Part shown: positions 6,962 through 63,775 of the stretch, piece after piece | Layout of the letters: each line of letters starts with the position of its first letter | Numbering within the stretch: the first letter of the stretch is position 1 | Assembly: GCA_965223845.1 (NCBI GenBank) | Contig: CBDCXR010000004.1 | Coordinates: forward strand, 3,360,001-3,424,000 | From: Planctomycetota bacterium | GTDB taxonomy: Bacteria; Planctomycetota; UBA8108; SXIK01 | DNA: 64,000 nt | Direction of reading: 5' to 3' | Notes under the pieces: generated by a model | What the model was told of the DNA's origin: nothing | The model's input: the letters and a program-made list of their open reading frames with translations, nothing else | Database searches by the model: none | Program-made: the position numbers and the translations under genes

Positions 6962-7188
6962 GATTCAGAACGTGGCTCCGGAGGACTAGGGGAAAAACTC
7001 GCCGCGGCCCGGGTCCGCGTCGCGCCTCGGAATCACGCAGCGACGCGCACGACGAACCACCGGAAGGCTAACCGATCCTCCCCGAACATCGGAGCCGAAC
7101 CGGGCGCGGCCGCTACCGCTCGCCCGCGCGGCGATGTCCCGCGATCGCCTCACGGCCGGGCGCGGACCCCCGGCTACCGCAAAACTAC

Positions 7189-7217
7189 TGGCATGAGCCC
7201 CTGACGGGAGTACGATA
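7189..7217 (+). promoter_or_regulatory. Possible sigma70-type promoter
   Basis: (C)TGGCA(T)-N16/17-TACGAT upstream of a structured leader. Confidence 0.3.
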
Positions 7218-7627
7218 CGGAAACGGGAGGTATAGAACTGGTGAGAGTCGGCGGCTGACGACCGAGCGATCAGTCCGGTGCGTAGCTGTCGATGGACGAG
7301 TGTCCGGCGATTCGCCAGAGCTCGGGGAGACCTTCGGGACGAAGGGACTTCGAGCCGAAGACGGCGGCGCGCGCTCGGCGTTCGTCGCTGCGTGCGTGCG
7401 TTTGACGGCCGCGTCGAGGTCGGGCGAGCGCTCGGTGGGTGCGTAGTCATGCCGGTTTCCATCGACCGCCGGAACTCACTCCTCCGGCGGATCGAGTGAT
7501 TGCTCCGAGAGCCAAACCCTTGAGAGAGGACTGCGTCTTGGGTCGAGAACCGGACGGCTGGAGAGAGTGCGAGGCGGAGAGTTCGGCGGGAGACGCGACT
7601 CACGAACCGCTCAGTCCCGGAAGCGAG

Positions 7628-8356
7628 ATGCATGCTTCTCCATCGTCACCCGAGCTCGCGCGTCCGCGCGAGCCCGCCGGGAAGCGCGGCGATGGACCGC
7701 GCAACGACGATGAGAGTGCGTGCGACGTCGAGCCCTTCGACCGGATCGAGGACTCCGGTCTCGCCTTCGAATCCGACGAAGCGGAGTCACTCGTTTTCGC
7801 CGGAGACGCGCAGATCGTCGTCGAGCCGCGCCCGATCCCGTCGACGCTTCACTCCGCGTTCCTCGAACGGCCGTTCACGCACTGTACGATCTGTTCGCGC
7901 GCACTTCGCTCTCCGTCACCCCCGGGGAGCGAGGGACCCCCGGAGAGCGAGGGACCGCTCCTCTACGAGATCCAAAAGGTCTTTCGCGGCACGGAAGTCC
8001 TCTTCGAGATGGCGATCTGCCGTCACTGCAGTGACGCGATTTCCCGCGAGTTCTCCGAGGAATCATTGAACGCCATGAAGGGATTCCTCCTCGCGAACTT
8101 CCGTCCGAGTGGGGACGCCGCGACCTGCCATTTCTGTCGAGTCCCCGTCGATCTTCCCGGGCGCTGGACCGTCGTGGGCGCTTGCCATTCCGATCGACTC
8201 CTCTTCCCCGAGTTCGTCGCGTGCGAGCCGTGCACGGAGAGCCTTCAGCTTCAGCTGTCGCAGAAGACTCGGGACACTCAGGATGAGTTCATCCGCGACC
8301 ACTTCCCCGGCGTGCCCGCCGACATGGACGTGAGTCCGCGGGTCTTCGGGATCTGA
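7628..8356 (+). CDS. Hypothetical Cys-rich (putative double Zn-finger) protein
   Basis: Four CxxC pairs (CTIC, CRHC, CHFC, CEPC) with coding-like composition. Start uncertain (the ORF track begins at 7439). The stop codon lies inside the downstream inverted repeat. Confidence 0.7.
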   Translation: MHASPSSPELARPREPAGKRGDGPRNDDESACDVEPFDRIEDSGLAFESDEAESLVFAGDAQIVVEPRPIPSTLHSAFLERPFTHCTICSRALRSPSPPGSEGPPESEGPLLYEIQKVFRGTEVLFEMAICRHCSDAISREFSEESLNAMKGFLLANFRPSGDAATCHFCRVPVDLPGRWTVVGACHSDRLLFPEFVACEPCTESLQLQLSQKTRDTQDEFIRDHFPGVPADMDVSPRVFGI

Positions 8357-8411
8357 TTGAAAGTCCGACCAAGCGCGGAGCGCTTGGTCGGACTTTCAAT
8401 CAGATCTTTTT
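8350..8411 (+). terminator. Perfect 27-bp inverted repeat followed by T5
   Basis: GATCTGATTGAAAGTCCGACCAAGCGC-gga-GCGCTTGGTCGGACTTTCAATCAGATC-TTTTT. Confidence 0.7.
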
Positions 8412-8990
8412 AGGGGGCTTTCGCGAAGCCCCCTCGTCGCGGCGGAAAAGCCGCCGCGACTCACCCCGACGAGACCTCGCCTTCGGCTCGGGGGCGAACG
8501 GCTCGGGCGCGAGCGAGTCAGGCGCACATCCGCGCTTGGTCGGACTTTCAATCAGATCTTCTTAGGGGGCTTTCGCGAAGCCCCCTCGTCGCGGCGGAAA
8601 AGCCGCCGCGACTCACCCCGACGAGACCTCGCCTTCGGCTCGGGGGCGAACGGCTCGGGCGCGAGCGAGTCAGGCGCACATCCGCGCTTGGTCGGACTTT
8701 CAATCAGATCTTCTTAGGGGGCTTTCGCGAAGCCCCGCTTTCGCGAAGCCCCCTCGTCGCGGCGGAAAAGCCGCCGCGACTCACCCCAACGAGACCTCGC
8801 CTTCCGCTCGGGGGCGAACGGCTCGGGCGCGAGCGAGTCAGGCGCACATCCGCGCTTGGTCGGACTTTCAATCAGATCTTCCTAGGGGGCGTTCGCGAAG
8901 CCCCCTCGTCGCGGCGGAAATCCGCCGCGACTCACCCCGACGAGACCTCGCCTTCGGCTCGGGGGCGAACGGCTCGGGCGAGCCCGAGCA
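8380..8990. repeat. Tandem array of ~152-bp palindrome-rich units (REP/BIME/MITE-like), about 4 copies
   Basis: Units start at 8380, 8532, 8684 and 8852. Unit 3 is 168 bp because of a 16-bp internal duplication, and unit 4 diverges after ~8980. Each unit contains several hairpins. Confidence 0.93.
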
Positions 8991-9089
8991 CCCGCGGGTG
9001 TTCAGACCGCAGATCTCGTTCTTTCGAGGGCGCCGGGGAAAGTCCCCCCGACGCCCCCCCGAGGACTGAGGTGCGAGCGACGCCATCCG

Positions 9090-9597
9090 ATGTCCTTCGT
9101 GCCTGTTCGATTCCCGGACCAGTTTCCTCACAGCCCCGTCAGACCGACGGGCTGCGGCCAGATCGGCTCACCGCGATGAGCCGTCGCGTGAGGCCTTGTG
9201 GGGCGAGACGCGAGAGATTCGCGCGCGCGGTTCCGTGATCAGGCTCGGCCGTGCGCGCTCTCCTCGAGCGACTTCACCGGTGGGCTCGAGCCGTTCCCCA
9301 CGCCCGGCGTCGGAAAACCCGACATCCCGCGCGGCAACATCAAGCCATCGACTCGCTGCTCGAGCGTGCGACCGCCGTCCCGAACGTGCAGGATCGGCGC
9401 CTACCGTCACTTACGAAAAAATGCTCGCTCGTGGCCCTTGGGTTGCATTCCTCGTTTCGCGACCGGCGAGGAGAAGTAAATCGCGCTGGTCACGATAACG
9501 ACCAAAGACCTCGTGCCTCCGGAGCCGCGCGCTCCTTGACCGGCCGGTCCTCACGCAACCGGCGAGAACGGGGAAGCCGAGGGTAGAAGGGTTTTGC
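9090..9597 (+). ncRNA. Candidate large structured non-coding RNA (family not recognised)
   Basis: No credible ORF. 9093-9115 pairs with 9571-9591. Nested multibranch stems are present, G-U pairs favour the + strand, and a terminator follows. Confidence 0.5.
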
Positions 9598-9613
9598 GCG
9601 CCCGCGTTGACGG

Positions 9614-9652
9614 AGTCGGCCGGCGATTCATTTCGTCGGCCGACTTTTTTTT
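9614..9652 (+). terminator. Rho-independent terminator
   Basis: 13-bp stem AGTCGGCCGGCGA/TCGTCGGCCGACT, 6-nt loop, then T8. Confidence 0.8.
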
Positions 9653-9896
9653 CGAGCGAGCCGCGCGCCGTCGAGCCCGCGAGTTCCCGACGGCCAGTCC
9701 GAGGCACGATCACGCCGGATCTCCTTCCCGGCCGCCCCGCGCACACCCCGATGTCGGATTCTCCGACATCGGGGTGTGGACTCGCGGCGAGCGCACTGGC
9801 GTCCGTTCACGTAGAATGCGCTCCTCCGCCCCGCCCAATTCGGCGGACCCGCTTCGCGGCTCCGACCAACGAACCGAGGACGAGCGAGCCAGATCC

Positions 9897-11348
9897 GTGC
9901 CCAGTCGACCCGAGGCCCCTCGCCCCCCGTCGCCCTACGACGAGCTTCTCGAGTGGATTCCGGCGGACCGGCTCGTCGCCGATCCGGCGCTCCTTCGACT
10001 TTACGAGTGCGACGGGTTCCCCCTCCACAAAGAGCTCCCGCCCGTCGTCGTTCGCTGCGCGTCCCGCGACGACGTGGTCGCGGCGGTACGCTGGTCGAAC
10101 GATCGCGGCCTCCCGTTCGTCCCCCGAGGCGCCGGCACCGGCCTCAGCGGCGGCGCGACCCCGGTCCGCGAAGGAATCGTGCTCGACATGAACCTCATGC
10201 GGCGGGTGATCGAGGTCGATCCGGCGAACGGATTCGCCGTCGTCGAGCCCGGTGTCGTCAATCTGAACATCTCGCGCGCCGCCGCACCGGACGGTTGCCA
10301 CTACGCACCCGACCCGTCGAGCCAGAAGGCGTGCACGATCGGCGGCAACGTCGCCGAGAACGCCGGCGGCCCTCACTGCCTCAAGTACGGCATGACGACC
10401 GACCACATCCTCGGCCTTGAGGTCGTCTTTCCCGACGGCAGCATCGCTGAACTCGGCGGACCCACGGCCGGCGTCGACGGCTACGACCTCGTCGGACTCT
10501 TCGTTGGAACGGAAGGAACGTTCGGCGTCGTCACCAAGGTGACCGTTCGTCTCCTTCCGGCGGCTCCGAGCGTACGCACCTTTCTCGCGATCTTCGACTC
10601 GATGAACCTCGCTTGTCGGTCGGTCGCCGAGATCACACGCACCGGAATCGAACCTGCGGCGCTCGAGATCCTCGACCAGCTCACGATCCGTGCGGTCGAA
10701 GCCTCCGTCTACGCCGCGGGGTATCCGCAGGACGCGGCGGCCGTCCTCCTCATCGAGATCGACGGTTTCGAAGCGGGACTCGACGGCGACGAGCGGCGCG
10801 TCCGCGAGATCGTCGAGCGGCACCACGCGCTCGAGTTTCTCGTCGCGAAGGACGAAGCGGACCGGCAACGACTCTGGCGTGGCCGGAAGGGTGCCTTCGG
10901 CGCGCTCGGACGCATCAACACCGACCTCTATGTTCTCGACGGCGTCGTTCCGCGCACGCGCCTCGAGGCGGCGCTCGAGGAGATCTACGCAATCGCGGAT
11001 CGCCACCGGATCGTTCTCTCGAACGTCTTTCACGCCGGCGACGGGAATCTCCATCCGAATATCTCTTACGACGGCCGCGACCCCGACGAGCGCGAACGCG
11101 TCCTCGCTGCGGGCCGCGAGATTCTCGCCGCGTGTGTAAGGGAGGGCGGCACGATCTCTGGGGAGCACGGCGTAGGAGTCGAGAAGCTCGAGTTCATGCC
11201 GCTCGTTTTCTCCGAGTCGGACCTCGCGCTCCAGCGCGACCTCCGCGGCGCCGTCGATCCGAAGATGCGGTCGAATCCCGGGAAGATTTTCCCGGACACC
11301 CGGGGCTGCGTGGAAGTCGGACGGAACCAACGGACGGTCGCGTCGTGA
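9897..11348 (+). CDS. glcD: Glycolate oxidase subunit GlcD (FAD-linked oxidase)
   Basis: PRGAGTGLSGG, PDPSSQ.ACTIGGNVAENAGG, HAGDGNLHP and GEHGVG motifs. Start must be downstream of the 9652 terminator (GTG 9897 or ATG 9816). Confidence 0.93.
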   Translation: MPSRPEAPRPPSPYDELLEWIPADRLVADPALLRLYECDGFPLHKELPPVVVRCASRDDVVAAVRWSNDRGLPFVPRGAGTGLSGGATPVREGIVLDMNLMRRVIEVDPANGFAVVEPGVVNLNISRAAAPDGCHYAPDPSSQKACTIGGNVAENAGGPHCLKYGMTTDHILGLEVVFPDGSIAELGGPTAGVDGYDLVGLFVGTEGTFGVVTKVTVRLLPAAPSVRTFLAIFDSMNLACRSVAEITRTGIEPAALEILDQLTIRAVEASVYAAGYPQDAAAVLLIEIDGFEAGLDGDERRVREIVERHHALEFLVAKDEADRQRLWRGRKGAFGALGRINTDLYVLDGVVPRTRLEAALEEIYAIADRHRIVLSNVFHAGDGNLHPNISYDGRDPDERERVLAAGREILAACVREGGTISGEHGVGVEKLEFMPLVFSESDLALQRDLRGAVDPKMRSNPGKIFPDTRGCVEVGRNQRTVAS

Positions 11349-62188: not shown

Positions 62189-63775
62189 TCAGCTTAGACC
62201 GTACTTCTTCATTCGGCGGTAGAGCGACTTGCGTGTGATCTGAAGCTGCTGCGCCGCGCGCGACTTGTTTCCCCCCGCAGCTTGGAGCGCCGCCGCAACG
62301 ACTCGCCGTTCGGCCGCGCTGACCGCGCCGTCGAGCGTCAATTCGCCGTCTCGCTCGCCGACGGCAGACCGTAGGACGAGGCTCTCCGGCGCAATCGGAT
62401 CCACGCCCAGCGCGACGAGCCGGCGCACTTCGTTCTCGAGCTCGCGCACATTTCCCGGCCAGTCGTGACGAACGAGAGCGAGCCAAGCTTCGCGTGTGAT
62501 CCGCGGGGCTTCCCGCCCGAGCGACGCGCTCTCTCGTCGCAAGAAGAACTCGCCCAGAGCGCGGATATCCTCGCGTCGGTCGCGGAGCGGCGGGATCTCG
62601 AACTCGATCCCCTTCAGCCGGTAGTAGAGATCCCGACGGAAGCTCCCGAGCTCGACGAGATCGGAGAGATGGCGACGCGCGACACTGACGACCCGAACGT
62701 CGACGCGAACGGCGTCCTTGGCTCCGATCGGCCGCACTAGCCCGTGCTCGAGGACTCGGAGAACCTTCGTCTGAAACTCAGGGCCTGCATCGCCCACGCC
62801 GTCGAGCACGACGGTTCCGCCGTCCGCCTGCGTGACGACTCCGACGCGATCGGCGTCCGCGCCGGTGAACGCACCGCGAACGTGACCGAAGAGCTCGGAC
62901 TCGACGAGCGTGTCGGGAATCGACGCGCACTGAACGGTTGCGAACGCACCGCTCGACCGAGCGGAGGAAGCGTGCACCCCGCGCGCGAGAAGCGATTTCC
63001 CGGTCCCGGTCTCCCCGTGGAGAACGACCGGAAGATCGGACTCTGCGACGCGACGCAGTGTCTCGAACGCGTCGCGCAGATCGGGATTTGCCGAGACGAA
63101 GCCGTGAAAGTCCTCCGTCTCGGCGGGACGGAGGTACTGTTCGAGGTCGCGCGCGACCGGTGACTCCTCGCTGGCACTCGTCGTCTCGCGACTCATGTCG
63201 GCCGCACGCCCGTCGTTTCTCCTCACGACGAGAAGCTCGAACGCGGTCCTCCACAGCGCGAGAAGGTCGTCCGGCGCGAGCGTCACCGTTTGAAAACGAT
63301 GGTCGACGTACACTCCGCCGTAGAGCTCACCGCGGTAGCGGATGGGAAGGACGAGGATCGACCTCGCTGGGCGCTTCCCGTCGAGCGATTCTTCCGCTCG
63401 GTATCGGCGATCGGAGCGCGCCTCCGAAACGAACAGCGGCTCCCCCGCCGTCATGGCGCGTTTGATGGCGTAGTGGCTCACGCGCGAGGCGGGTGCGGGA
63501 AGCGGCTCACCGTCGCGGTACGCCGCCGCCAAGACTTCGAATCCTCCGGACTCGCGCAGACGAAAGAGCGCGACGCGCTCCCCTCCGAGTTGCTCGGCAA
63601 TCGCTTGAAGCACACACCGCGTGGCGGTCGCCCCCGTTCCTCGTGTCGCGATCGTTTCGAGAGCCCGCGCGAGCCTTCGAAGCGCGAGCGCGCCGTCCGG
63701 CCCCGACTCGGCCGCGACGGAAGCATGCTCGTCGCGGTGCGAGCTCGGCACGGAGACCCCTTCTCGATCGCTCAT
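62189..63775 (-). CDS. GAF + sigma54-interaction AAA+ + Fis-HTH regulator
   Basis: GAF domain; GETGTGKS, ESELFGH..GAFTGA, FRRDLYYRL, WPGNVREL and GNKSRAA motifs; degenerate Walker B. Confidence 0.92.
   Translation of the reverse strand: MSDREGVSVPSSHRDEHASVAAESGPDGALALRRLARALETIATRGTGATATRCVLQAIAEQLGGERVALFRLRESGGFEVLAAAYRDGEPLPAPASRVSHYAIKRAMTAGEPLFVSEARSDRRYRAEESLDGKRPARSILVLPIRYRGELYGGVYVDHRFQTVTLAPDDLLALWRTAFELLVVRRNDGRAADMSRETTSASEESPVARDLEQYLRPAETEDFHGFVSANPDLRDAFETLRRVAESDLPVVLHGETGTGKSLLARGVHASSARSSGAFATVQCASIPDTLVESELFGHVRGAFTGADADRVGVVTQADGGTVVLDGVGDAGPEFQTKVLRVLEHGLVRPIGAKDAVRVDVRVVSVARRHLSDLVELGSFRRDLYYRLKGIEFEIPPLRDRREDIRALGEFFLRRESASLGREAPRITREAWLALVRHDWPGNVRELENEVRRLVALGVDPIAPESLVLRSAVGERDGELTLDGAVSAAERRVVAAALQAAGGNKSRAAQQLQITRKSLYRRMKKYGLS

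What the first reader, a model, noticed from the sequence alone, without database searches (positions are those of the whole stretch)
9090..9652. Candidate ~500-560 nt highly structured non-coding RNA of no recognised class
Seen: an ORF-free region whose ends pair (TCCTTC 9093/GAAGGG 9586, TGCC 9100/GGTA 9582, TCG 9107/CGA 9578, TTCCC 9111/GGGAA 9571). CCTCAC/GTGAGG (9126/9188) encloses two hairpins. GTGGGG/CCCCAC (9198/9296) encloses three. Further hairpins lie at 9309-9323, 9373-9399, 9448-9473, 9487-9504, 9521-9535 and 9543-9563. G-U pairs favour the + strand, and a strong + strand terminator follows although no CDS needs it. Hallmarks of RNase P, tmRNA, SRP and group I/II introns were not found. 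Inference: a novel large ncRNA.
Basis: partly seen in the sequence, partly recalled or inferred. Interest (0 to 1): 0.8.

Follow-up and report, generated by a model that had tools for sequence, protein, structure and literature searches.

The report
Sigma-54-driven small RNA beside glcDEF
The flagged 560-base stretch is probably not one large folded RNA: it looks like an enhancer site and a sigma-54 promoter driving a roughly 195-base small RNA that ends in an invariant 19-base motif and a terminator, a new family that always sits just upstream of a glycolate oxidase operon in one group of planctomycetes.

Summary
The "large, highly structured RNA" reading does not hold. Without the terminator the region folds no better than shuffles (z -1.05). 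The 5'/3' closing helix is matched or beaten by 189 of 200 shuffles.

Only three blocks are conserved across 15 related loci:
- a TGT-N11-ACA palindrome (window 9308-9324);
- a sigma-54 -24/-12 promoter (9432-9447; 12 of 15 loci within 2 mismatches of TGGCAC-N5-TTGC, controls 0-2);
- an invariant UUUGCGCGCCCGCGUUGAC (9593-9611) followed by a covarying intrinsic terminator (9612-9652).

The palindrome-to-promoter spacing varies in steps of about 10.7 bp. The genome has two rpoN genes and about 30 genes for sigma-54 enhancer-binding activators (bEBPs).

Best reading: a sigma-54-dependent sRNA of about 195 nt (about 9458-9652). It is single-copy and lies upstream of an orthologous glcD in 14 of 15 loci; the fifteenth contig ends too early to tell. 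A second copy of the palindrome precedes glcD, which suggests co-regulation.

Transcript ends, targets and function are inferred, because no RNA data were available. I rate it a new member of a known kind.

The parts
9308..9324 (.). Enhancer-like palindrome (UAS) CGTCGGAAAACCCGACA, of the type TGT-N11-ACA / TGTC-N9-GACA. Presumed binding site of a sigma-54 enhancer-binding activator (bEBP).
   Evidence: It is a conserved block in the alignment of 15 loci (A2; invariant A-C-A). The spacer from its end to the promoter GG is 97-140 bp and is phased at about 10.7 bp. In the own genome only this site (1 mismatch) and the exact copy at 9752 combine the palindrome with an A/T-rich centre at this locus.
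9410..9415 (+). Conserved CTTAnG block about 22 nt upstream of the -24 element. Role unknown; it could be a DNA-bending or accessory site.
   Evidence: Column block 'CTT..G' in alignment A2. Not tested further.
9432..9447 (+). Sigma-54 (RpoN) promoter TGGCCC-TTGGG-TTGCA, with GG at 9433-9434 (-24) and GC at 9445-9446 (-12).
   Evidence: One mismatch to TGGCAC-N5-TTGC. The equivalent site has 2 mismatches or fewer in 12 of 15 loci, against 2 of 15 on the antisense strand, 0 of 14 downstream and 0 of 13 further upstream. The genome-wide rate is 0.049 per 250 nt. The block was first seen as a conserved block in an unbiased MAFFT alignment.
9458..9652 (+). Predicted sRNA of about 195 nt. The 5' end is inferred as about 12 nt after the -12 GC; the 3' end is the terminator U-tract.
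   Evidence: It is bounded by the promoter and the terminator. Homologues are 97-254 nt long with non-conserved 5' domains. It is single-copy in the genome.
9593..9611 (+). Invariant 19-nt motif TTTGCGCGCCCGCGTTGAC. It can form a 4-bp hairpin, GCGC(GCCC)GCGU, at 9596-9607.
   Evidence: Eighteen consecutive invariant columns in 15 of 15 loci (A1). One copy per genome in 9 of 21 genomes of the order, and 0 hits for the reversed control pattern. The hairpin is predicted by RNAalifold but has no variation with which to test it.
9612..9652 (+). Intrinsic terminator: 15-bp stem, 6-nt loop, T8.
   Evidence: Terminator scan. Across the 15 sequences 93.7% of cells pair, 9 pairs show compensatory changes, and 0 of 500 shuffles reach the observed covariation.
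9752..9768 (.). Second, exact copy of the palindrome, TGTCGGATTCTCCGACA, inside a longer perfect inverted repeat (about 9740-9779). It lies between the sRNA terminator and glcD.
   Evidence: It is the only exact match in the 7.9-Mb genome. A similar palindrome lies between terminator and glcD in most of the other loci (regex hits and inspection).
9812..9817 (+). -10-like hexamer TAGAAT (in context, CGTAGAAT). Presumed own promoter of glcDEF.
   Evidence: The 8-mer CGTAGAAT recurs upstream of glcD in L011, L016, L017, L109 and L114, and TAnAAT/TAnnCT variants occur in most other loci (inspection). The simple sigma-70 scan did not call it.
9897..11348 (+). glcD-like FAD-linked oxidase, the first gene of a glcD-glcE-glcF-like operon that runs to about 14031.
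   Evidence: Pfam FAD_binding_4 plus FAD-oxidase_C (E 4e-61). The downstream ORFs carry FAD_binding_4 and CCG/4Fe-4S domains. The orthologue lies downstream on the same strand in 14 of 15 loci.

Best explanation
The locus is a self-contained small-RNA gene and not a 560-nt structured RNA. A bacterial enhancer-binding protein (bEBP) is inferred to bind the TGT-N11-ACA palindrome at 9308-9324. By DNA looping it would activate sigma-54 RNA polymerase at the -24/-12 promoter at 9432-9447. Transcription would start near 9458 and stop at the intrinsic terminator (9612-9652), giving an sRNA of about 195 nt. Its 5' two-thirds vary freely in length and sequence between relatives. The functional core is the 3' module: a U-tract, the invariant GCGCGCCCGCGUUGAC (possibly a 4-bp GCCC-loop hairpin) and the terminator. 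I infer that this module is the business end of a trans-acting regulator, either a seed that pairs with one or more conserved target RNAs or a protein-binding platform. I also infer that the sRNA is switched on together with the adjacent glycolate oxidase operon glcDEF, because the same palindrome lies in front of that operon's own promoter.

Shown by comparison: the promoter, the enhancer site and its helical phasing, the terminator covariation, motif invariance, single-copy status and strict synteny with glcD.

Inferred: the transcript ends, sigma-54 dependence in vivo, trans action and the identity of the regulator.
For: (1) Only the 3' approximately 60 nt are found by DNA search in relatives (5 of 60 other genomes).
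(2) The 19-mer is single-copy in 9 of 21 genomes of the order. The 2 further pattern hits, in genus g5, are coding false positives.
(3) A scan of 185,579 species genomes for the exact 18-mer gave 89 stretches. Only 8 have the terminator, all are planctomycete records and all are loci already found.
(4) A metagenome scan added 6 new loci.
(5) Sigma-54 promoter: 12 of 15 loci within 2 mismatches on the sense strand; controls gave 2 of 15, 0 of 14 and 0 of 13.
(6) The palindrome-to-promoter spacers are 97, 98, 98, 106 (three loci), 107 (two), 108 (three), 118, 119, 130 and 140 bp. The phasing statistic R peaks at 0.86-0.90 at a period of 10.75 bp. Random placement of the 7 non-modal spacers reaches this in 3 of 5000 trials.
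(7) The genome encodes 2 RpoN proteins and about 30 strong Sigma54_activat domains.
(8) Terminator covariation is supported.
(9) A GlcD orthologue (63-73% identity) occurs in 10 of 21 genomes of the order. Nine of these carry the sRNA; in the tenth (G017) the gene starts 238 nt from a contig end. GlcD lies downstream in 14 of 15 loci.
(10) A second palindrome and a conserved CGTAGAAT lie between terminator and glcD.
(11) The motif is not coding: its reading frame relative to glcD differs between loci, and every codon position is invariant.
(12) The architecture mirrors experimentally studied sigma-54-dependent sRNAs, for example GlmY/GlmZ with GlrR sites TGTCN10GACA (passages of PMC3045617).
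Against: (1) There is no transcript evidence at all: no RNA run was listed for this organism.
(2) No target was found. Complementarity of the motif to the glcDEF region (best -26.8 kcal/mol) is within the background of ten other 4.4-kb chunks (-25.6 to -33.2), and no site is conserved across loci. Genome-wide complementary 11-14-mers look like GC-rich chance.
(3) Neither Hfq nor CsrA was found in the 91.7%-complete genome, so the usual partners of such sRNAs are missing.
(4) Three of 15 promoters have 3 mismatches, and the two family-f3 loci have GT instead of GC at -12.
(5) The palindromes assigned to L112, L113 and L120 are weak and were chosen by the alignment, so the phasing statistic partly depends on MAFFT.
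(6) No bEBP gene lies within the flanks available.
(7) The strict linkage to glcDEF fits a cis-acting leader equally well.
Confidence: 0.6

Rival explanations
1. The element is a cis-acting leader or attenuator of glcDEF. The sigma-54 promoter would be the regulated promoter of the operon. The terminator at 9612-9652 would be conditional, and the invariant motif just before it would be the binding site of an antitermination protein (or ligand) that lets polymerase read on into glcD.
For: The element is found only, and always, directly upstream of the orthologous glcD on the same strand (14 of 15 loci; 9 of 10 genomes that have the orthologue). The invariant motif directly abuts the terminator stem. 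No trans target was found.
Against: The 190-630 nt between motif and glcD start contain a second regulator palindrome and a conserved -10-like CGTAGAAT, which implies a separate glcD promoter. No conserved aptamer-like blocks exist between the promoter and the motif: the 5' domains differ in length (whole RNA 97-254 nt) and share no k-mer found in more than 8 of 15. I saw no alternative pairing of the motif with either terminator arm (inspection of A1). The terminators are strong, with U6-U9 in 14 of 15 loci.
Confidence: 0.2
2. One reading: a single highly structured ncRNA of about 500-560 nt spanning 9090-9652 and closed by pairing of its ends.
For: The complementary segments exist, and the MFE fold uses them. 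The z-score is -2.16 on the + strand against -1.01 on the - strand. There is no Rfam match.
Against: Without the terminator z is -1.05. The closing helix is matched or beaten by 189 of 200 shuffles in the window and is significant in none of the 15 loci. Outside the three blocks, nothing in 9090-9430 is conserved in any relative. The conserved blocks inside it have the signatures of DNA sites: a sigma-54 consensus, a palindrome that does not maintain pairing, and helical phasing. The 196 nt before the promoter fold with z +0.58. No sigma-70-like promoter lies in 8900-9950.
Confidence: 0.05
3. The RNA is a protein sponge or decoy. The purine-rich GGAG/GAGG/AGGA motifs of the variable 5' domain, or the invariant hairpin, would titrate an RNA-binding protein in the manner of CsrB/RsmZ or CrcZ.
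For: GGAG/GAGG/AGGA occur 58 times in the 1444 nt of the 15 5' domains. Mononucleotide shuffles give 28.6 +/- 6.2 (maximum 46 in 500), and the antisense strand gives 31. CrcZ is a known sigma-54/CbrB-dependent sponge (search listing and abstracts only, PMC6296734 and PMC8871633).
Against: No CsrA or Hfq gene was found in the genome. No single motif is shared by all loci. Many of the motifs lie in predicted stems.
Confidence: 0.1
4. The transcript encodes a small protein, or the region is a decayed gene.
For: Five ORFs of 55-111 aa lie within or overlap 9071-9746, and a sixth of 87 aa overlaps at 8868-9131. In the window the motif is in frame with glcD (ORF 9594-11348).
Against: No ORF shows the codon-position GC pattern of real genes, and none has a Pfam hit. 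The frame of the motif relative to flanking ORFs differs between loci. All 18 motif positions, wobble positions included, are invariant.
Confidence: 0.02

Closest known systems
GlmY/GlmZ sRNAs of Enterobacteriaceae (sigma-54 plus the bEBP GlrR plus IHF)
   Same: Both are stand-alone sRNA genes with a -24/-12 promoter, upstream palindromic activator sites and an intrinsic terminator. The GlrR consensus TGTCN10GACA (passage of PMC3045617) closely resembles the TGTC-N9-GACA form of the palindrome here.
   Different: There is no sequence or structure match to any Rfam model, these included. The spacing within the site is one bp shorter. I saw a single upstream site where GlmY/GlmZ have three. The phylum and the genomic neighbour (glcDEF) differ. 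The GlmY/GlmZ partners Hfq and RapZ are not expected here; Hfq was not found and RapZ was not searched.
CrcZ/CrcY (CbrB- and sigma-54-dependent) and NrsZ (NtrC- and sigma-54-dependent) of Pseudomonas
   Same: These are sigma-54/bEBP-controlled sRNAs that tie carbon or nitrogen status to post-transcriptional control (search listings and abstracts only: PMC6296734, PMC8871633, PMC4253122).
   Different: Those RNAs act through Hfq/Crc or are processed into repeats. Here no Hfq was found, there are no internal repeats, and the conserved part is a single 3' module.
Qrr sRNAs of Vibrio and Pxr of Myxococcus (recalled from knowledge; not seen in any call)
   Same: These are sigma-54-dependent sRNAs whose most conserved stretch is a short seed region next to the terminator.
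   Different: There is no homology. Qrr sRNAs occur in multiple copies and depend on Hfq. This comparison is a recollection and was not tested.
Large structured ncRNAs (GOLLD, HEARO, OLE, ROOL, raiA, RNase P, tmRNA, 6S)
   Same: The candidate is long, intergenic and GC-rich, with many predicted hairpins.
   Different: None matches in Rfam 15 or ARAGORN. There is no conserved multi-helix core, and the fold is no better than chance without the terminator.

Membership tests
Sigma-54 (RpoN) dependent promoter | GG at -24 and GC at -12 with fixed spacing (TGGCAC-N5-TTGC) | tested here: met
   The window site TGGCCCTTGGGTTGC has 1 mismatch. Twelve of 15 loci have 2 or fewer, against 2 of 15, 0 of 14 and 0 of 13 in the controls. 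The consensus itself is recalled from knowledge.
Sigma-54 (RpoN) dependent promoter | Upstream activator (enhancer) site about 80-150 bp away, acting by DNA looping | tested here: met
   A TGT-N11-ACA palindrome lies 97-140 bp upstream, with spacers phased at about 10.7 bp (R 0.86; 3 of 5000 random trials reach this). Protein binding itself was not tested.
Sigma-54 (RpoN) dependent promoter | The organism encodes RpoN and enhancer-binding proteins | tested here: met
   Two Sigma54_DBD hits (199 and 191 bits). There are 36 Sigma54_activat hits, about 30 of them above 100 bits.
Sigma-54 (RpoN) dependent promoter | Transcription start about 12 nt after the GC, abolished without RpoN or the bEBP | not testable with these tools
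   No RNA run was listed. This needs 5' mapping and mutants.
Intrinsic (Rho-independent) terminator | GC-rich stem-loop followed by a U-tract, with the stem kept by covariation | tested here: met
   A 15-bp stem plus T8. 93.7% of cells pair, 9 pairs have compensatory changes, and 0 of 500 shuffles reach the covariation score.
Trans-acting base-pairing sRNA | Independent transcription unit in an intergenic region (own promoter and terminator) | tested here: met
   Promoter and terminator. glcD appears to have its own -10 element and regulator site. This is sequence evidence only.
Trans-acting base-pairing sRNA | Conserved seed complementary to conserved target mRNA sites | tested here: inconclusive
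   The seed candidate is invariant in 15 of 15 loci, but no target stands out from the background in glcDEF or in the genome. No annotated-genome target prediction was possible.
Any Rfam 15 family (including RNase P, tmRNA, SRP, 6S, GlmY/GlmZ, riboswitches and large ncRNAs) | Covariance-model score at or above the family's gathering threshold | tested here: not met
   There are 0 matches at gathering thresholds in the 64-kb window. The best score inside 9090-9652 in E-value mode is 18.8 bits against a cut-off of 50. In seven related loci the only hit was an unrelated SAM riboswitch.
Riboswitch / transcription-attenuation leader | Conserved aptamer or alternative (antiterminator) structure upstream of and overlapping the terminator | tested here: not met
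   The 5' domains are unalignable and the RNAs are 97-254 nt long overall. The only conserved element is the 19-mer, which does not overlap the stem. The 5' parts fold with z between about +0.7 and -3.5, mostly near -1.
CsrB/RsmZ-type protein sponge | Many GGA motifs in loops, and a CsrA/RsmA protein in the genome | tested here: not met
   GGA-type motifs are about twofold enriched, but no CsrA was found in the 91.7%-complete genome.

The most novel reading that the evidence does not exclude
The invariant 3' module (U-tract, GCGC-GCCC-GCGU hairpin, UGAC, terminator) could be the docking site of a still unknown RNA-binding protein. In that case this sRNA would be the first recognisable component of a riboregulation system in Planctomycetes, in a genome where neither Hfq nor CsrA was found. 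It would be wired by a shared enhancer/operator into glycolate oxidation, so that one sigma-54 activator controls both an enzyme operon and a post-transcriptional regulator.
Probability: 0.25. Interest if true: 0.6.

Novelty: new member of a known kind. Interest (0 to 1): 0.45.

Why it matters
In five full-text literature searches I found no described planctomycete sRNA, no sigma-54-dependent sRNA from this phylum and no sRNA linked to glcDEF. This locus offers a complete regulatory unit that can be predicted from sequence: an enhancer site, a sigma-54 promoter, an sRNA with an invariant 19-nt core and a co-regulated operon. It can be tested directly in a cultured relative. It would give a first entry point to sRNA biology, and to the use of the large bEBP repertoire (about 30 genes here), in a phylum where no Hfq or CsrA was found in this genome.

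Tried and rejected
Rfam in both modes, on the window and on seven related loci, gave nothing relevant. ARAGORN gave nothing.

A covariance model of the 3' module (R1) was searched over all 59 genomes of the class. Only the 9 known loci scored 65-83 bits. The next best scored 30.8 bits, and the 11 weaker hits I inspected were ordinary terminators without the motif. No wider distribution was found in the genomes searched.

Public sequencing runs: no RNA holder was listed. Read laying was not used, because the four holders are contigs of unknown kind from one sample and cannot show RNA ends.

Target search: complementary k-mers in the own genome and duplex scans of glcDEF in 14 loci gave nothing above background.

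I first took the block-1 motif for a common promoter element and rejected that: GGAA..CGACA-type matches are rare in the genome.

I looked for a bEBP gene next to the locus. None lies in the flanks of the 15 loci. The only one in the window is about 53 kb away, at about 62606-63100 on the - strand.

Upstream neighbours have either no Pfam hit or FG-GAP repeats and are not regulators.

K-mer enrichment in the 5' domains found no universal motif. CTTGAA occurs in 4 of 15 and GGAGCC in 6 of 15.

Two weak DNA hits (G060, query 265-323; G002, query 194-252) were not followed up beyond the Rfam scan.

Supplements of papers were not consulted.

Full report
What is there. The stretch 9090-9652 lies in a 1.5-kb gap. 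Upstream is an array of dispersed tandem repeats (8340-9000). Downstream is a glcD-glcE-glcF-like operon that starts at 9897 (Pfam). A 15-bp terminator with T8 ends the region on the + strand. Rfam 15 has no match at gathering thresholds anywhere in the window. In E-value mode nothing inside the region scores above 18.8 bits. ARAGORN finds nothing.

Is the fold more than chance? The z-score is -2.16 for 9090-9652 on the + strand (3 of 100 shuffles fold as well) and -1.01 on the - strand. Most of that signal is the terminator. For 9090-9592 z is -1.05 (14 of 100). The closing 5'/3' helix is not special: the 28 nt before the U-tract pair with the upstream 400 nt no better than shuffled 28-mers (189 of 200 as good). 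The same test is unremarkable in all 15 related loci, where the lowest count is 16 of 200. Five ORFs of 55-111 aa lie within or overlap 9071-9746, and a sixth of 87 aa overlaps at 8868-9131, so "ORF-free" is not literal. None has the codon-position GC pattern of real genes here (0.73/0.47/0.82 for glcD) or a Pfam hit.

What is conserved. A DNA search of 60 relatives matched only the last 60 nt or so, in five genomes. The region is single-copy in its own genome. The core of the match is TTTGCGCGCCCGCGTTGAC. With up to 2 mismatches it occurs once per genome in 11 of 21 genomes of the order, and the reversed control pattern gives 0 hits. Two of the 11, in genus g5, lie inside a coding sequence and lack the terminator. 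That leaves 9 genomes in 8 genera of three families.

An exact-18-mer scan of one genome per 185,579 species gave 89 stretches. Only 8 are followed by the hairpin and U-tract. All 8 are records titled Planctomycetia, Planctomycetota or similar, and all are the loci already found. A metagenome scan for the motif plus a U-tract gave 14 stretches. Seven are true members, one of which duplicates a known locus, so six are new. A covariance model of the 3' module found no further members among the 59 genomes of the class.

Anatomy from 15 loci. An unbiased MAFFT alignment of the 650 nt upstream showed two more conserved blocks.

Block 2 fits the sigma-54 -24/-12 consensus. In the window it reads TGGCCC-TTGGG-TTGCA at 9432-9447. 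Twelve of 15 loci are within 2 mismatches of TGGCAC-N5-TTGC in the 250 nt upstream on the sense strand. The controls are 2 of 15 on the antisense strand (both the same near-palindromic site), 0 of 14 downstream and 0 of 13 further upstream. The own genome carries such sites at 0.049 per 250 nt.

Block 1 is a palindrome of the form TGT-N11-ACA (window 9308-9324, CGTCGGAAAACCCGACA). Its outer bases are conserved, while its inner positions change without keeping complementarity. That pattern fits a dimeric DNA-binding protein and does not fit an RNA stem. The spacer from the palindrome to the promoter GG is 97, 98, 98, 106 (three loci), 107 (two), 108 (three), 118, 119, 130 and 140 bp. These values step by about one helical turn. 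The phasing statistic R peaks at 0.86-0.90 at a period of 10.75 bp, and random placement of the seven non-modal spacers reaches it in 3 of 5000 trials. One caveat applies: three of the palindromes (L112, L113, L120) are weak and were placed by the aligner.

The genome encodes two RpoN proteins and about 30 enhancer-binding proteins. Together these results define an enhancer-dependent sigma-54 promoter. From established knowledge of this promoter class, it should start transcription about 12 nt after the GC, near 9458.

The RNA. From the predicted start to the U-tract the RNA is 196 nt in the window and 97-254 nt in the other loci. The 5' domains cannot be aligned and share no universal k-mer. 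They fold only slightly better than shuffles (window z -0.21, range +0.7 to -3.5). They are about twofold enriched in GGAG/GAGG/AGGA (58 observed against 28.6 +/- 6.2).

The universal part is the 3' module. It consists of U3-4, 18 consecutive invariant positions that can form a GCGC(GCCC)GCGU hairpin with no variation to test it, and a terminator. The terminator stem is 93.7% paired, has compensatory changes at 9 pairs, and beats all 500 shuffles. The motif is not coding. Its frame relative to neighbouring ORFs differs between loci, and wobble positions never change.

Link to glcDEF. The orthologous GlcD (63-73% identity) is present in 10 of the 21 genomes. Nine carry the RNA immediately upstream. 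In the tenth (G017) the gene starts 238 nt from a contig end. The genus without the RNA has only a 47-49% paralogue. GlcD lies downstream on the same strand in 14 of 15 loci, and the fifteenth contig ends 50 nt after the terminator.

Between terminator and glcD most loci carry a second copy of the palindrome. In the window this is the only exact copy in the 7.9-Mb genome, at 9752-9768. It is followed by a -10-like element, CGTAGAAT, that is identical in five loci from different families. So glcDEF appears to have its own promoter, and it shares a regulator site with the sRNA.

Mechanism and rivals. The best-supported reading is a bEBP/sigma-54-activated, terminator-bounded sRNA. Its invariant 3' module would act in trans, by pairing or by protein binding, and the RNA would be co-regulated with glcDEF. 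This reading is analogous to GlmY/GlmZ, whose GlrR sites are TGTCN10GACA (passages of PMC3045617), and to CrcZ and NrsZ (listings and abstracts only).

The evidence against the trans-acting step is real. I found no target. No Hfq or CsrA was found. There are no expression data.

The main rival is a cis-acting leader with a conditional terminator. It is favoured by the absolute synteny with glcD. It is disfavoured by the separate promoter elements in front of glcD and by the lack of any conserved structure upstream of the motif.

The 560-nt structured-RNA model is disfavoured on every test I could run, but only a mapped 5' end can exclude it.

Novelty. Five full-text searches found no description of a planctomycete sRNA of this kind or of an sRNA linked to glcDEF. 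The kind, a sigma-54-dependent sRNA, is well known. This is a new family of that kind in a phylum where sRNAs are essentially unexplored.

Noticed in passing
window 8340-9000: An array of four tandem copies (152-168 nt, 84-100% alike) rich in perfect hairpins. It starts with a 27-bp perfect inverted repeat at 8350-8406, which accounts for the spurious miRNA hits in Rfam E-value mode. The unit is a dispersed family, with similar arrays at 10 or more other places in the genome (for example C4 positions near 268 kb, 2.857 Mb, 3.332 Mb, 3.432 Mb, 5.033 Mb and 6.960 Mb).
   Followed up: partly
window 9740-9779: In this genome the second palindrome is embedded in a 37-nt perfect inverted repeat (16-bp arms, 5-nt centre), much longer than in the other loci. 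It could also act as an RNA hairpin or a transcriptional roadblock ahead of the glcD promoter.
   Followed up: no
window about 62606-63100 (- strand): A sigma-54 enhancer-binding protein gene (Sigma54_activat domain, 190 bits) is the only bEBP gene in the window. At about 53 kb from the sRNA it is not an obvious cognate regulator.
   Followed up: no
window 7439-8356 (+): A 305-aa ORF with a moderately gene-like codon-position GC pattern (0.67/0.52/0.74) but no Pfam family. It overlaps a 215-aa ORF on the other strand (6986-7633) that looks non-coding.
   Followed up: no
G000 contig C1 (15,005 bp): This small contig has 48% G+C against 65% for the chromosome. It may be a plasmid, a phage or a contaminant.
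   Followed up: no
G000:C4:1215301-1216698: A second, paralogous glcD-like gene (49% identity to the window's GlcD). This paralogue, and not the sRNA-linked orthologue, is the one found in the genus that lacks the sRNA.
   Followed up: partly
L006:2941-3046 (- strand; genome G060): A SAM-I riboswitch (75 bits) lies near a weak, probably chance DNA match to window 9324-9382.
   Followed up: no
window 9410-9415 and equivalents in A2: A short conserved CTTAnG block sits about 22 nt upstream of the -24 element in most loci. It may be a bending-protein or accessory site.
   Followed up: no
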